DNA of 61,757 nucleotides, the filler included, from Blastocystis sp. subtype 4 (Eukaryota), in the NCBI RefSeq assembly GCF_000743755.1. It is 8 parts of 8 records of this genome, joined end to end, with 100 filler letters (N's around TTAATTAATTAA, not from the genome) between each part and the next. Parts side by side here need not be neighbours in the genome. Positions count along the whole stretch, not along the records: positions 15,590 to 23,245 come from NW_014569156.1; 7 more parts are not named here. One strand, written 5' to 3'. Positions 16,507 to 23,245 of the stretch are shown in pieces. How positions within the stretch are numbered: the first letter of the stretch is position 1; every line of letters begins with the position of its first letter. Both the position numbers and the translations under genes were made by a program. The notes below the pieces were generated by a model. It searched no databases. It saw only the letters and a program-made list of their open reading frames with translations, and was not told where the DNA came from.

Positions 16507-18432
16507 TTATCGAGAGAACTGTCGGTCATCCTTCTTCCTACGCTTATCATTGAATCCCTTTCCTTTCTCTCGTGTATTCTTTCCACTATTCTTTACAAAA
16601 GACATATTAATCATTGGTGGAACTTCAAATCCGAAGCTTGTTGCAACAGCCTTCAAATCCAAATTATTCACATTGAATATATCCTTCATACTATGTGAAG
16701 CATATGCCATAATGTAACTTCGATATGCATCTCGAGCCGCTTTATGAAGATAATAGTTTCTTGATATCAATTTCGTTAACTGCCCTTGAATATTCGCCAC
16801 TTTGTTCGTTGGAAACTCATATTCGTTTAACGAAACCTTTGCAGCTCGCAAATACTTTAAAAACATAACTTCCTATGATAATCAAGGATCACTAAACAGT
16901 ACCTCTGGAAGAAGGAAGAGAAGAGCACGACCTGCTCCCTTCTCACCACGTGCTGTTCGTCCAACACGATGAATATACTCCTTAGGATCATCAGGAGGAT
17001 CAAACTGAATAATCCAATCAACAGCGGGAATATCCAATCCTCGTGCAGCAACATCAGTACACAATAACACACCCTTTTCAGCATTCACGAATTCAAGGAA
17101 AACGGCGGTTCGGCGCTGCTGTTTCTGTTTCCCATGGATACACATCACCGGAATATCAATGTAGTTCAGCAGTTCAGAGAAATATTGGACTTCGTTGCAA
17201 CTACTGAAAAATACCCTAGAATTCAGGAATTCCATAAATCCATACATGACCTTCTTCTTAAGATAATTCTTCTTCAGGAAGGTGTAGAGAAGAAGGAAAC
17301 GCTGACTACTGGAACAAACGACATATCCTTGCTCCAATCGACTCACAGTTGCTTCTGAGCATGCATCGTGTACACCTACATACACCGGATTCTCCTAATT
17401 CTCAATTCCGTTCATTGTTCCTACGCTCAATGAGAGACGAGCTAAACCCTCAACATTCTTGTCCTGGGTAGCTGAAAACAGCATAGTTTGACGTTTCTTT
17501 GGCAACATCTTCACAATTGCTTTCATATCTTCCTCAAATCCAATTTGAAGAATACGATCTGCTTCATCAATCACAAGACATTGCAGATTCTCATATAAAA
17601 ATCCTTTCGTATTCTGCAAGTGATCAAGAAGACGTCCTGGGGTCGCTACGAGAATCGATACACCCTTAACAAGCTTGGTTGCTTCCGTCTTACGATTCGA
17701 TCCACCCATGATCAGACCATGTGTTAAGTTATGAGCAGTGGCCAGTGCCGAAACTACTCCGAAAGTTTGGAGAACCAGTTCACGAGTTGGAGCAATGATG
17801 ATGGCTCCTGTGCCTTGGCGTTGTTTGAATTTGAGACGAGATAGAAGTTCGACAACCGGAATGACAAAGGCAAGAGTCTTTCCCGAGCCAGTTCTATACA
17901 TCAATTCCAGAGAAGAAGACAACTTGGCAGCTCCTAACACATCCTTTCCACTTAATAAGGCTGGAATAGCTTTTGCTTGAATGGGAGTCATTGTCTTGAA
18001 CTTCATATTGTCCAATACTTCCAATGTCTTTTCTACGAGTCAAATCATATCATTGTGATGTACCACTCAATTCTAAAGAAGAGAAAGGTACATCTGAAAA
18101 GAATTCTGAGTTCTCACTGCTTTCCTCACCTAACCAATCATGCCTTTCATTCTAACAATACTCTTTGCCTCTGGCTTGGTGGGAACCACTTCCTCATCAA
18201 TATGATCTTCCAAAGCCTCATTTGGAGCAACAGGAGTTTCAGGCACTCCCTGATCGACTTTCTGTTCCTATGGTATTACATTCCAAGTCACAGGAATTAC
18301 TCCAGAAATCTCCGATGCCTGACGCTTCATAGAGGTTTTCTTTTCCTCACTATCGTTCTTGTTACTCTTCTTCGAAAGATTTTCTAGTTCATCAGAATTC
18401 CAACAGCAAGTTCAACTCTTCACAGGAGCCAT
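16507..18432 (-). CDS. HAS1: DEAD-box RNA helicase HAS1/DDX18
   Basis: [72 protein letters not shown]. Confidence 0.95.
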
Positions 18433-18990
18433 GGTGAGTGTTTTTGAATAAATGGAAGGGAAAAACGAGACCGCTAGAATAGAAGAAAAACCGTGCCTCT
18501 TCTTAAATCAATGAATACAAAGCGTTTGACATAGAAGAATTTTAGATGCCTTTGGAATGGGTTTTAGAAGCAATTAAAGGGAAATGTCGATATTGAAGGT
18601 GATTCCTACTAGAATCCTATCAAACAATCTAGACAAGTAGAACGAGTGATATGGAGAAAGATGGACGATTATTCAAGTGTTGTGAAAGATGGAAGCTTTG
18701 AAACCGCTAGGAATGTGGATACTCTATTCAAAAACATCTTATATCACAAATGGAGTGTTAGTAGAATCAGTATCAGGACCATGACCCACTCTCGATCCCT
18801 TACGACGGATTCTATTCTCGCATACTACATTAATAACATTTTCGCTATGAATACAATCTCAATAAACTACTCATAGCAAACCAAACAACATTCCAAAATA
18901 ACCCCATATTATGTAACAGTTCTTACGGGAATTTGACCCATTCTGCTATTTGTTCAAGACTAGCAAATATCCATTGTTATTATTCGAAAT

Positions 18991-19247
18991 ATGCATCTTT
19001 ATTACTATCTTGGTGAGGACGGTAAAAGAGTCTATACTCTGAAGGTGAAATTGTGGTTGTTGTGTGATTTCTAGAGAGAATCTCCTACGGGTGGACCAAC
19101 CTTTTCAGCACATCCTGGTATGCATGATTTTACTGAAATGAAAATCTAGCTCGCTTTTCTCCCGACGATAAGTATTCCAGAGAAAGAGTGACTTGTAAGG
19201 AGCGATATGGATGTCTTCTAACCCAGCAACCTGACATGAAGATGTAA
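18991..19247 (+). CDS. NOP10: H/ACA snoRNP subunit NOP10
   Basis: Three exons splice to [64 protein letters not shown]; not in the ORF track. Confidence 0.95.
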
Positions 19248-19370
19248 CTTTATCTATTGTTCTATTTTGCTTGTTTGTTCCACTTACACTTGATTTGTAT
19301 ATATTTTCTTCGGTACACTCTAGTTGATTGCCGATAGTACGTTTCACATTCATAATCCTGTTTGAAGCAG

Positions 19371-21517
19371 ATGGATGATATTGAATTTGATTTCGAAATG
19401 GCAGCATCTCCTGAGGAGACCCATACAAAGCAAGTACTGTTAGAACGAGCTGATGAAGAGTAGAAAAAGGATAAAACGAAGAGAACTGTATGTCGTCACT
19501 GGCTAAAGCATGAGTGTCAACGTGGTGATGCGTGTACATATCTACACGCGATGGATCTTGATAAGATGCCAGACTGTGATCTCGGAGCCAACTGCAATCG
19601 TCCAGACTGCATCTTTAAACACCCTCCCAAACTCAATGATGTGAAGGATGTTTCTTGTTGTGATTTCTTAGAAGGAGTGCCTGTTTTACAAACAAGGATT
19701 TTGTCCATATGGAAAGAGATGTAAATATAGGTAGGGCTATGGCTCCTTGTCAATCATAGACATGTGGTGTATGAGGATGGTTTTCTACCCAGTCGTGTGG
19801 ATATATCTGCTCGAAGACATGAAAGTGAAATAGATCCGAAAGTATGTCTTCGGTTCGTGGGTTAATGGTAGGACAAGACACTCTTTAATTCTGGTATTCG
19901 ACGAAGCAAGTGTAATTCGTACGAAGAAAAAAGACGATGCATTTATGGAGAGAATTGTGTCTACTGTCATGGTGTTTTTGACCCTCGAAGTTATTCTCTT
20001 AGATAATATTGAGTTTTAGTTGCTGCTATCGATCGTCGTACGCCTCATGAAATGAACATGCCTGATTATCCTAAAGATACGTATTCGTACTTCTTCTTCT
20101 GTTTCCCTCATATTACAACACTTTCCGATTTTATTTTACGAGGTGAGTTTGCTGTTCCTTCTCGTTGTGTTGACAAGGTCAATGAAGCATATGATAAGCC
20201 TCAAAACCACGTTTACTTCTTCGTGAGTTTGTTAAGTTCGAAAATCATTTATGTGGGTTTGACTTGGGGTCTTCATGATAGGCACTGGGTGAGATGAAAG
20301 AACGTTGTTCGCGTGACCGGGAAATGTCACATCCGTTTGCGGTAGAATGGTTGAAGGTGGTTCACATGCCATTCATGATCTTTGATCGTCTTGGTACAAA
20401 TGTGTTAATATTATCACCCACAGATCGTCACGTCAAACTAGACAGAATGGAAGATGGAACAGAATTGGATGCTGTCAACGGAGGTGAATTGTTTGAATGG
20501 GTCTGGAGACACCCAAATGTGTGTTTAGTAGCTTGAATTTATCTGTAGACATTGTTAATGCCTCGTCAGAGTATGCTCATTTGTCCAGGTAATCATGTCT
20601 ATGGATTGGGATAGTAGAACCTAAAGAACTTATAAATGACGATGAATTGAATGACTATGTCATTTCTCCAGATCTTAAAGAATCTACTTCGTTCATTCAC
20701 GGGAATTCGCTAATTGTGGGAATGGATCGTCAGGATTTTGAAGCTACTATTGAAAGCGAGCTTCTTCGTCTCCCATATTCTGATATTGCTCTGTTTCTGT
20801 CATTTCTCTCTTTCATTTGTAGCGCAGATAATATCACGATTGGATGTTTCATTCTTGTCAATGATGGAAACTCCCTTTGTGGACTCCTACAAGCAACTTC
20901 TACAGCAAAGAACTATGTAGGGAAAGCCGTTCATAGCTCTACTCTGGCAATTGAGGTGAATGTACGTGTGTGGTATCGTTTCCACTCTCTCCCCTATCGG
21001 AGAGTACCAATTCATTTGAATGCATCTACAAGGTGTTGGATTAGCAAGAAAACGATGACAGCGATTATGGGCGAATTCCTTCATGATAGTGGTCCGATTG
21101 ACTATCCTGTTATGACAATAGTAGAAAATAATTAGTAGAAACGAATGAATATGAAATCCTTGTTTAGCAAGGATATTGATATTGACATTGATGATGATAT
21201 ATTTCAGGCTGGAAGACGTCTACGTGAACATCCTACCTTCCAACGTTTTACTCGTACGAATGGCTGGTGCTATTTAGAGTTAATCGGGAAAGTAGACATG
21301 AGGGTGTGGTTTCAGAGTAGGGAAGTATGGGTTCGGAAGCAACACTTGTTAGAAATAATGAAGGACCATTGCATTTGTGTTTCTATTGTAACGATGGGTT
21401 ACGTTAGCATATATCGAAGTATTAACTATAGGTTTTCGCATTGTGATGAACCAGATCTGGTCCATGGCAAAAGAGATATATTCTGAGTATCAGGAGTGGA
21501 AGAAATCCTCTCATTAG
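19371..21517 (+). CDS. CPSF4: CPSF30/CPSF4-like protein: four CCCH fingers + degenerate YTH + DCD-like + KH-like regions
   Basis: MDDIEFDFE N-terminus; TVCRHWLKHECQRGDACTYLHAMDLDKMP; KECLFYKQGFCPYGKRCKYRH; YTH-like FAVEWLKVVHMPF...DGTELDAVNG. The reading frame is continuous across ~30-nt introns. Confidence 0.75.
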
Positions 21518-21680
21518 ATTTGTTTGTTTCGTACTTATATTTTGTTCTTTTGATTCCCTTTTGTGTGCTTTCATTGCTGTGTTGCCATTATCGTATTAAA
21601 CTACGTAAAGGATGATATTGGGTTCTCACTCTCAGAATCGGTTATCGCTAATAATCCAAGATCTCTTAAGGTAATACAGC

Positions 21681-22894
21681 ATGTCATCAGAGAATCAAAG
21701 TGACTTTGAATCAAATCAAAAAGAGTTATCAATAGAAGATAGAAGTGTGTTCCCGGAAGTATGAATTACTAAATGGAATAAGAGATAGGTAAAGGAAGAG
21801 GTGACGAAATCCATACCTACTCCAACTAGTTCTAATAATTCGAAAGTTGCTACCCAGTCGGCTGTTGTGTTAAACTCCTCATCAATTCCTCAACCAGACA
21901 CTTTTTCTTCTCAGCCACAAGTATATTCTTTGATGTGTTATCATCTAGCATCAACTTTGTCAATTTAATGATGGTAGTAATTCGCAGCCTCCTGTCATGA
22001 TTCAACAACCAGTCTTAAACTTGCCTCCCTCCCCCGTCCCGGTGGAAGCGACACAGGACCCTGTAATGGTAGCAATTCCCTATGGTTCTTCTGAGGGATC
22101 AACAGTCTATAAGCTAGTTCCTTCCTATTTGATGCAATACCCAGTTTGTAATGCATATGTTGTCAATACTACCCCAAATGGCGGTCCTCAACCTACATAC
22201 TCTCCTCGACCAGTATTGGTTGCTTCTCAACCTTCAATGACATTGGCAATTCCAGCTCAATCGTCTGTTCCTATTCAGTCTCCGCAACCTCCAGCATCTC
22301 TTCAATCACCAGCATCTCTTCAGTCACATCCTAAACCTCCACCATCTCTTCGTCCCCAGCCTCAGGTGTCTCTTCAACCTCCGGGATCTTTAACCAAACC
22401 ACTGCCATCGCCTGCTTCCATCAAGCCACAGTCGCAGAATCAAGCTGCACCCATAAATATACCGGAATCAACAAAGCAAGAGGATTCCAACTCAACAAAG
22501 AAAGATGAGACAATTATTCGATGTTCTTGTGCGAAAACACATTGCTTGAAATTGTATCTCTTGATAGATGGATTAATCGTAGATATTGTGATTGTTTGAA
22601 GGCCGGACGAGAATGTGGACCTCTCTGTTCTTGTGTCGATTGTTTTAATCATGCAGACAGGATAGAACGAAAGATGGCAATCCAATTCCTGAAAAGGAGG
22701 AATCCACATGCTTTTCTTCGTCTCACTGGGAATGTAAGATTGTTATCCTATTGTGATGGTAGGAGCAACCGAAACCTTGTGGCTGCAACTGTCAACGGAG
22801 TCAGTGTTGTAAGAAGTATTGTTCTTGCTATGTATCGGGAAAGCCTTGTTGCCCTAACTGCAACTGTGTAAACTGTTCGAATAAACGAAAGTAG
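21681..22894 (+). CDS. Tesmin/TSO1 CXC (CRC) domain protein, LIN54-like
   Basis: CSCAKTHCLKLYCDCL...CSCVDCFN, RNPHAF linker, second CXC GCNCQRSQCCKKYCSCY; Pro/Gln-rich N-terminal half. Confidence 0.85.
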
Positions 22895-23091
22895 TCTGTA
22901 TCTGTTTGTTGGGAATCGCGAATATGGGTCAAATCACTACAAAAGTGACCCCATTTATTAGGGCCAACTTATCGTGTGGCTGGTTAATCCAGAATTCACC
23001 CTATTCCTAATCAATTATAGCGTAGGTAGTTGCGAAAGGATGAATTGGAACTGTGCATATGAGTATATTTGGACTAACGGTGGACTAGACC

Positions 23092-23245
23092 ATGGAGATG
23101 ATTGCTAAGCCCGAAGGCGTCAAGGCCAACGATTTCGAGATCGCTATTGCCAACGAGATTGCTGAGATTGCCAAGAAGACCAAGGATCTTGCTGAGCCTC
23201 TGAAGACGTTCAAGATGACTGCTGCTAAGGAGGTGGAGATTGAGG
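23092..23245 (+). CDS. RPS7: 40S ribosomal protein S7, 5' part
   Basis: MIAKPEGVKANDFEIAIANEIAEI...LKTFKMTAAKEVEI; strongly biased codon usage. Confidence 0.8.

What the first reader, a model, noticed from the sequence alone, without database searches (positions are those of the whole stretch)
19371..21517. Remodelled CPSF30 (CCCH x4 - degenerate YTH - DCD-like - KH-like): candidate reader for the stop-creating 3'-end system
Seen: one continuous spliced frame with plant-like CPSF30 features (FDFE N-terminus, VCRHWL...LH..D..KMP, ECLFYKQGFCPYG). Finger 2 is shortened to C-x5-C-x4-C-x3-H (CDLGANCNRPDCIFKH) and lacks the aromatics after the first Cys. The YTH-like region has GEFAV where YTH domains have G(V/I)W(A/S)T. 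It is followed by a DCD-like stretch (LLRLP...LCGLLQATS...IEVNVRVW...LP) and a KH-like stretch without GxxG. Established: human CPSF30 fingers 2-3 read AAUAAA, and Arabidopsis CPSF30-L and Toxoplasma CPSF4 use a YTH aromatic cage to read m6A. Inference: both the AAUAAA-reading finger and the m6A cage look eroded in an organism that places cleavage to the nucleotide relative to a downstream UGUUUGUU, so this protein may have been re-purposed. I do not know of this architecture being described for Blastocystis.
Basis: partly seen in the sequence, partly recalled or inferred. Interest (0 to 1): 0.85.

Follow-up and report, generated by a model that had tools for sequence, protein, structure and literature searches.

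The report
Blastocystis CPSF30 with lost RNA-reading motifs
This is the Blastocystis gene for the mRNA tail-adding factor CPSF30, built with the same extra domains already described in other stramenopiles; two of those domains have lost standard RNA-binding motifs, so it likely serves as a scaffold rather than as the reader of the signal that positions Blastocystis mRNA ends.

Summary
The gene is real: 14 exons, 586 aa, order CCCH x4, YTH, DCD, KH. It was rebuilt in three other Blastocystis lineages, and spliced contigs support it. The architecture is not a Blastocystis remodelling: it is published for stramenopile CPSF30 (Bell 2020, PMC7641849) and was recovered here in an oomycete and an ochrophyte. 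The short finger 2 is shared by 30 of 30 DCD-bearing homologues and has Nab2-type spacing; two of four Blastocystis lineages keep the aromatic said to be lost. A published survey lists METTL3 in 0 of 14 stramenopiles, so decay of the m6A pocket predates the UGUUUGUU system. Blastocystis-specific are the loss of the first cage Trp (0 of 4, against 34 of 37) and deletion of the KH GxxG loop (0 of 4). Fingers 1 and 3 keep the base-stacking and Fip1-binding residues. Best reading: a conventional CPSF scaffold with relaxed upstream recognition, while CstF-64 likely reads UGUUUGUU. A direct role through the TTP-type finger 4 or an Mmi1-like YTH surface is not excluded (about 12%). No binding was tested.

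The parts
19371..21517 (+). CPSF30 (CPSF4) gene, 14 exons, 586 aa. Introns: 19434-19463, 19641-19671, 19731-19759, 19842-19871, 19990-20019, 20253-20281, 20394-20423, 20519-20548, 20589-20617, 20793-20822, 21109-21138, 21292-21320, 21403-21431
   Evidence: intron 20793-20822 seen spliced and five introns supported by length
19491..19547 (+). Finger 1 (C-x7-C-x5-C-x3-H), equivalent to human ZF2; human K69/H70/K77/F84 positions are R/H/Q/Y
   Evidence: 21 of 25 positions invariant in four lineages
19575..19622 (+). Finger 2 (C-x5-C-x4-C-x3-H), positional equivalent of human ZF3, Nab2-type spacing shared with stramenopile-type homologues
19678..19763 (+). Finger 3 (spans intron 3), equivalent to human ZF4; keeps Tyr and Phe at the human Y127 and F131 Fip1-binding positions
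   Evidence: 18 of 22 invariant
19911..19970 (+). Finger 4, TTP/TIS11-type C-x8-C-x5-C-x3-H with invariant Tyr residues and an altered lead-in motif
20079..20515 (+). YTH domain over three exons; first cage Trp replaced by Phe (codon 20148-20150); no Trp in the second cage loop; C-terminal half well conserved
20692..21078 (+). DCD (EVE/YTH-like fold) domain, the fastest-evolving folded domain of the protein
21172..21496 (+). KH domain of KHDC4/SF1 type with the GxxG loop deleted
   Evidence: 76%; homologue KH; fold test inconclusive
21521..21528 (+). TGTTTGTT downstream element; by the 4-nt rule the cut falls after 21516, so the genomic TAG would become UAA in the mRNA
   Evidence: rule and seen at the neighbouring gene; this gene's own cut not observed

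Best explanation
The locus encodes the Blastocystis orthologue of stramenopile-type CPSF30 (four CCCH fingers, YTH, DCD, KH), which likely works as the usual scaffold subunit of the cleavage and polyadenylation complex and likely does not itself specify the cut site. Inferred mechanism: finger 1, helped by a relaxed Nab2-type finger 2, holds upstream RNA without a strict hexamer; finger 3 binds Fip1 and so tethers poly(A) polymerase; the YTH domain no longer reads m6A because stramenopiles lack the METTL3 writer; DCD and the GxxG-less KH are kept as folded structural or protein-contact modules. The fixed 4-nt spacing to UGUUUGUU would then come from a downstream-element reader, most simply the short CstF-64 (RRM plus hinge). 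Shown: gene structure, orthology, domain order, residue states. Inferred: every binding role.
For: Best solved-structure matches are human CPSF30 ZF2-3 and yeast Yth1. The same domain order occurs in Chrysoparadoxa P0013 and oomycete CPSF4 P0020, and is published for heterokonts. Finger 1 keeps R/H/Y at human K69/H70/F84 in 4 of 4 lineages. Finger 3 keeps the Y127/F131 equivalents needed for Fip1. Finger 2 is C-x5-C in 30 of 30 DCD-bearing homologues; both aromatics are present in only 17 of those 30. In 37 short-finger homologues the pocket residues are already decayed: Lys 4, Ser 16, Asn/Asp 13, loop Trp 7, against 12, 15, 16, 16 of 19 long-finger ones. METTL3 is listed in 0 of 14 Heterokonta and was not found in oomycetes. 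DCD (32-38%) and KH (36-43%) identity to the distant lineages lies below the published 59-61% between-subtype median. The CstF-64 orthologue Rna15 binds GUUGU and UGUUGU, and a short Blastocystis CstF-64 is reported.
Against: The Blastocystis stem is long (1.78 changes per column) with short tips, and several positions are invariant in Blastocystis but differ from the homologue consensus, clustered in the C-terminal YTH half and the finger 3-4 linker; this pattern fits a gained function, though general fast evolution of Blastocystis was not controlled for. All domains show fewer amino-acid than silent changes, so none is simply dead. Finger 4 is an intact TTP-type finger. The METTL survey can miss genes: it lists no METTL4 in P. 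infestans while two are reported in P. sojae. CstF-64 binding to UGUUUGUU in Blastocystis is itself only a hypothesis. WDR33, Fip1 and CstF-64 could not be searched here (no genome).
Confidence: 0.7

Rival explanations
1. CPSF30 itself reads UGUUUGUU. The TTP-type finger 4 would bind a UGUU half-site as TTP/TIS11 fingers bind UAUU, or the cage-less YTH would bind unmodified RNA on its opposite face as fission-yeast Mmi1 does.
For: Finger 4's top structural relatives are TTP-family fingers, with Tyr residues invariant in 4 of 4 lineages. UGUUUGUU is a tandem UGUU repeat; that TTP fingers read UAUU half-sites is recalled, not from a call. Mmi1 is a precedent for a YTH domain that dropped m6A binding and reads a plain sequence. 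The C-terminal YTH half is 41 of 62 invariant, 74-82% identical. The stem branch is long.
Against: Finger 4 is present in other stramenopile-type homologues, and the motif is at chance density in diatom and oomycete genomes. There is one TTP-type finger for an 8-nt element. KH has lost its GxxG loop. In human CPSF the fingers bind upstream of the cut. A GU-binding RRM factor is already available.
Confidence: 0.12
2. CPSF30 does not read the motif but acts as a rigid spacer: its re-surfaced YTH-DCD-KH arm would fix CstF-64 relative to the CPSF73 nuclease and so set the 4-nt distance.
For: RNA-binding motifs are lost while folds are kept and new invariant residues appear in YTH and KH. Blastocystis CstF-64 lacks its C-terminal part, which leaves room for a new contact.
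Against: No interaction data. DCD and KH are the least conserved domains between lineages, which is unexpected for a precise ruler.
Confidence: 0.13
3. YTH or DCD still read a modified base (m6A from another writer, or m5C), as proposed for heterokont CPSF30.
For: Bell 2020 predicts modified-base binding for these domains. P. sojae has m6A from METTL4-like and METTL16 enzymes. Phe can partly replace Trp in a cage (inference).
Against: 0 of 4 lineages keep the first cage Trp, the loop Trp, or the Lys, Ser and Asn/Asp pocket residues; W259 and W310 are needed for m6A binding in Arabidopsis; Blastocystis is listed with no METTL3, METTL14 or METTL4.
Confidence: 0.05

Closest known systems
Heterokont CPSF30 orthologues, Znf-YTH-DCD-KH (Bell et al. 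2020, PMC7641849; here oomycete P0020 and Chrysoparadoxa P0013)
   Same: Domain order, short finger 2, fourth TTP-type finger, KHDC4/SF1-type KH, decayed m6A pocket.
   Different: First cage Trp lost (0 of 4 vs 34 of 37); both KH loop glycines lost with a two-residue deletion (homologues: first Gly 8 of 8, full GxxG 4 of 8); DCD and KH too diverged for Pfam; compact linkers.
Arabidopsis CPSF30-L and Toxoplasma CPSF4
   Same: Three N-terminal fingers matching human ZF2-4 plus a YTH domain on one chain.
   Different: They bind m6A through an intact cage and have METTL3; they are described with three fingers plus YTH only, and the plant homologue seen here has the long x8 finger 2.
Human CPSF30 / yeast Yth1
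   Same: Finger 1 = ZF2 with base-stacking residues kept; finger 3 = ZF4 with Fip1-binding residues kept.
   Different: No ZF1 equivalent detected; ZF3 equivalent three residues shorter; YTH, DCD and KH added; Blastocystis has no conserved upstream hexamer.
Fission-yeast Mmi1 YTH (functional analogy only)
   Same: A YTH domain that does not bind m6A.
   Different: Mmi1 is shown to bind an unmodified motif in a separate groove; nothing equivalent is shown here, and the groove could not be modelled.
Nab2 fingers 5-7 and TTP/TIS11 fingers (single-finger relatives)
   Same: Finger 2 has Nab2 spacing, and one Nab2 finger also lacks the aromatic after the first Cys; finger 4 matches TTP-family fingers.
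   Different: Here each occurs once inside a CPSF30, not as a tandem array.

Membership tests
CPSF30/Yth1 family | Tandem CCCH fingers homologous to human ZF2-ZF4 | tested here: met
   (human residues 64-145)
CPSF30/Yth1 family | Fip1-binding aromatics (human Y127, F131) | tested here: met
   Tyr and Phe at the matching positions in 4 of 4 lineages; binding itself not tested
CPSF30/Yth1 family | Subunit of the CPSF complex (with CPSF160, WDR33, Fip1) | not testable with these tools
   no genome held; no biochemistry
AAUAAA-reading CPSF30 (metazoan type) | Long ZF3 (C-x8-C-x4-C-x3-H) with aromatics after the first Cys | tested here: not met
   C-x5-C-x4 in 4 of 4 lineages, as in 27 of 30 DCD-bearing homologues
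Heterokont CPSF30 (Znf-YTH-DCD-KH) | YTH domain after the fingers | tested here: met
   profile-profile 98%, E 1.4e-14; Pfam E 9e-4, below cut-off
Heterokont CPSF30 (Znf-YTH-DCD-KH) | DCD domain after YTH | tested here: met
   profile-profile 96%; model pLDDT 83 with EVE/YTH fold matches, alignment-guided; no Pfam hit
Heterokont CPSF30 (Znf-YTH-DCD-KH) | C-terminal KH domain | tested here: inconclusive
   profile-profile 76%, E 2.3e-5, right position; truncated model pLDDT 66, no Foldseek hit, top VIA row KHDC4 KH at only Z 2.0, rmsd 4.7, 62 aligned
Heterokont CPSF30 (Znf-YTH-DCD-KH) | All domains on one transcript | tested here: met
   fingers and YTH joined on one spliced contig; its 1771-nt length fits the whole frame, but the part beyond YTH is inferred from length
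m6A-reading YTH | Aromatic cage (Arabidopsis W259, W310) and pocket Asn/Asp | tested here: not met
   0 of 4 lineages
Canonical RNA-binding KH | GxxG loop | tested here: not met
   0 of 4 lineages; that the loop is needed for RNA binding is recalled
UGUUUGUU reader | Sequence-specific binding to the downstream element | not testable with these tools
   no binding assay or RNA-complex prediction available
Mmi1-like YTH | RNA groove opposite the m6A pocket | not tested
   the YTH domain is split by a frame-shifting intron and no spliced protein record was found to fold

The most novel reading that the evidence does not exclude
On the stem of human-type Blastocystis, CPSF30 swapped upstream and m6A reading for direct recognition of the downstream UGUUUGUU, using its TTP-type finger 4 and an Mmi1-like YTH surface. 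This would make it the ruler that places cleavage to the nucleotide and lets poly(A) complete stop codons.
Probability: 0.12. Interest if true: 0.8.

Novelty: new member of a known kind. Interest (0 to 1): 0.36.

Why it matters
The protein that reads the Blastocystis element is still unidentified. This work gives a checked gene model and separates old stramenopile features (architecture, short finger 2, no METTL3) from Blastocystis ones (cage Trp, KH loop, re-surfaced YTH C-terminus). Only the latter can bear on the stop-creating system. Tortoise Blastocystis lack the element, so comparing their CPSF30 and CstF-64 is a cheap natural test. If CPSF30 did read the element, it would be a CPSF30 acting downstream of the cut, which I did not find described.

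Tried and rejected
No whole genome is held, so METTL3/14, WDR33, Fip1, CstF-64 and a second CPSF30 could not be searched directly. My first gene model mis-framed the KH end and was replaced. Protein 3 and row 1 were out of frame and were redone. A homologue search with the DCD stretch gave 0 of 391 candidates. The ESM Atlas gave no usable hit. No full-length Blastocystis record was among the proteins fetched. With only 3 (DCD) and 1 (KH) homologues the profile test was weak, 7% and 26%; the deeper sets of 28 and 8 gave 96% and 76%. Direct hmmsearch with homologue DCD and KH profiles stayed under 20 bits on all four Blastocystis proteins. The truncated KH fold was uninformative. The tree is a quick run and the position of the long Blastocystis branch is unsure. 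Silent sites are mostly saturated, so dN/dS is only a bound. Runs X1, X2, X3, X6, X4 and X7 gave no spliced contig over this gene. Weak loci L015 and L016 were not characterised. Earlier scan findings: none returned. No complex prediction was run, as partner sequences were not in hand. Rejected: 'finger 2 is eroded' (it is a shared Nab2-type finger); 'architecture is new' (published); 'locus is several genes' (spliced contig).

Full report
Setting. The window has about 39% G+C and 33 TGTTTGTT sites against 3.95 expected. An mRNA contig of the neighbouring gene shows five introns of 28-31 nt and a poly(A) tail starting four bases before a TGTTTGTT. This is the Blastocystis 3'-end system of Klimes 2014 (PMC4159000; parts 1 and 2 of 3 read). 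The organism name is inferred from these features; the subtype was not determined.

Gene model. Thirteen GT-AG introns of 29-31 nt give one open frame of 586 aa from 19371 to 21517. A metagenome scan returned 16 loci from 151 candidate stretches; 14 match at 67-100% and 2 weakly. Spliced alignment of 7 of the 16 loci, those long enough to hold the whole gene, gave full-length frames that fall into the window's own lineage and three others, 47-65% identical to the window protein. Ten of 13 intron positions are shared by all four lineages. One contig skips the intron at 20793-20822. A 1771-nt contig of a sister lineage links the finger exon to the YTH exon with 552 letters between, exactly the genomic 701 minus five predicted introns. 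Of 8 runs laid, these 2 gave spliced support; the other 6 gave unspliced pieces or nothing over this gene.

Domains. Fingers 1-3 align with human CPSF30 ZF2-ZF4; Farhat 2021 pairs the third finger of plant and apicomplexan proteins with ZF5 instead, and both bind Fip1. Finger 4 is closest to TTP/TIS11 fingers. Blastocystis YTH, DCD and KH profiles match the same domains of homologues at 98%, 96% and 76%, with cross-domain and shuffled controls far lower. The DCD stretch, folded with its in-frame intron retained and an alignment of 33 sequences, reached pLDDT 83 and matched YTH and EVE structures, TM about 0.55-0.64; the alignment guided this, so it is not independent. A KH model lacking its last helix, from lineage L012, was inconclusive.

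The architecture is old. The same order occurs in Chrysoparadoxa australica and in Hyaloperonospora and Peronospora CPSF4. [quoted passage not shown] That paper does not mention Blastocystis in its main text or in the 3 supplements held. Searches for Blastocystis with CPSF30 (3 papers), with CPSF4 and YTH (1 paper), with METTL3 and YTH (1 unrelated) and for CPSF30, YTH, stramenopiles (0) found no description of the Blastocystis protein; subscription papers are not covered.

Finger 2. Of 153 non-Blastocystis proteins examined, 76 matched the finger 1-2 pattern and 30 of those carry a DCD; all 30 have C-x5-C (27 with x4, 3 with x5 next). The search profile was built from short-finger proteins and most hits are unnamed, so 'stramenopile-type' is inferred for them. 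Both stacking aromatics are present in 17 of 30, neither in 8; each Blastocystis lineage keeps one of the two. The finger's best solved relative is yeast Nab2, one of whose fingers also lacks the first aromatic. So this is a shared finger type under relaxed constraint, not a Blastocystis erosion. Finger 1 keeps R, H and Y at human K69, H70 and F84; its HE pair and the Arg at human K78 were seen in none of the 76 others.

YTH and m6A. The first cage Trp is kept in 34 of 37 short-finger and 19 of 19 long-finger homologues but in 0 of 4 Blastocystis lineages (F, F, F, L). The rest of the pocket is already decayed in short-finger homologues. Supplementary Table 1 of PMC12695648 lists METTL3 in 0 of 14 Heterokonta and METTL14 in 1 of 14, with Blastocystis 0 for both; a Phytophthora study also found none in oomycetes (PMC11449341; passages). 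The two sources disagree on METTL4, so absence calls are imperfect. Loss of m6A reading therefore needs no link to UGUUUGUU.

KH and DCD. The KH loop has its first Gly in 8 of 8 homologues and a full GxxG in 4 of 8; all four Blastocystis lineages lost both glycines and two residues. DCD and KH are the least conserved domains between distant lineages (32-38% and 36-43%), YTH is 59-60% overall and 74-76% in its C-terminal half, fingers 1 and 3 are 82-88%; the published between-subtype median is 59-61% (PMC5608401; passages). Amino-acid changes are fewer than silent ones in every domain.

Mechanism. The best-kept surfaces are those of the conventional job: finger 1 and the Fip1 finger. I infer a CPSF scaffold that holds upstream RNA loosely and brings in poly(A) polymerase, while a GU-binding RRM reads the downstream element. 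Klimes proposed a 142-aa CstF-64 for this, and the yeast orthologue Rna15 binds GUUGU and UGUUGU (PMC2875009; passages). Against this stand the long Blastocystis stem and the clusters of Blastocystis-only invariant residues in the YTH C-terminus and the finger 3-4 linker, the intact TTP-type finger 4, and the Mmi1 precedent (PMC4737157; passages). These keep direct reading (0.12) and a spacer role (0.13) alive. Tortoise Blastocystis lack the element (PMC12129017; passages) and are the natural test.

Other papers seen: passages of PMC11529991, PMC6117058, PMC8313237, PMC5760199, PMC12626882, PMC9512404; passages and section 6 of PMC9745836. Recalled, from no call: that TTP fingers read UAUU half-sites and that the KH GxxG loop is needed for RNA binding. 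Supplements of Lind 2025, Klimes 2014 and Gentekaki 2017 were not read and may list 3'-end factors.

Verdict. It is a new, strongly diverged member of a described family, with two Blastocystis-specific motif losses and no evidence yet that it reads the stop-creating signal.

Noticed in passing
L005:3137-3165 (also L003, L004, L006); equivalent to window intron 20394-20423: In one sister lineage this intron reads GT...CG instead of GT...AG in 4 of 4 loci, and a transcript contig (run X8) carries the spliced junction: a likely functional non-canonical acceptor.
   Followed up: partly
window 21515-21528: By the 4-nt rule this gene's own genomic TAG would be cut after TA and completed to UAA by the poly(A) tail; Klimes 2014 counted 90 such conversions among 2,419 genes. 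Not observed directly.
   Followed up: partly
window 21541-22910: Tesmin/CXC-domain gene with five spliced introns and a poly(A) tail after 22898, four bases before TGTTTGTT; its transcript contig begins 13 bases after the CPSF30 downstream element.
   Followed up: yes
window 17395-19279: NOP10 and a DEAD-box helicase lie upstream; the upstream region is syntenic in L013 and L014.
   Followed up: partly
window 23004-23200: Very deep short contigs (about 25,000 in the last bin) with adapter-like loose ends in run X1; no Rfam match at E 0.1 and no tRNA. Possibly the start of a highly expressed transcript or an undescribed small RNA.
   Followed up: partly
P0020, P0013 and other short-finger homologues: Stramenopile-type CPSF30 keeps the first YTH cage Trp in 34 of 37 cases although METTL3 is listed as absent from all 14 Heterokonta surveyed; what that pocket binds is open.
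   Followed up: no
L015, L016: Two weak CCCH matches in high-GC contigs without TGTTTGTT; not characterised.
   Followed up: no
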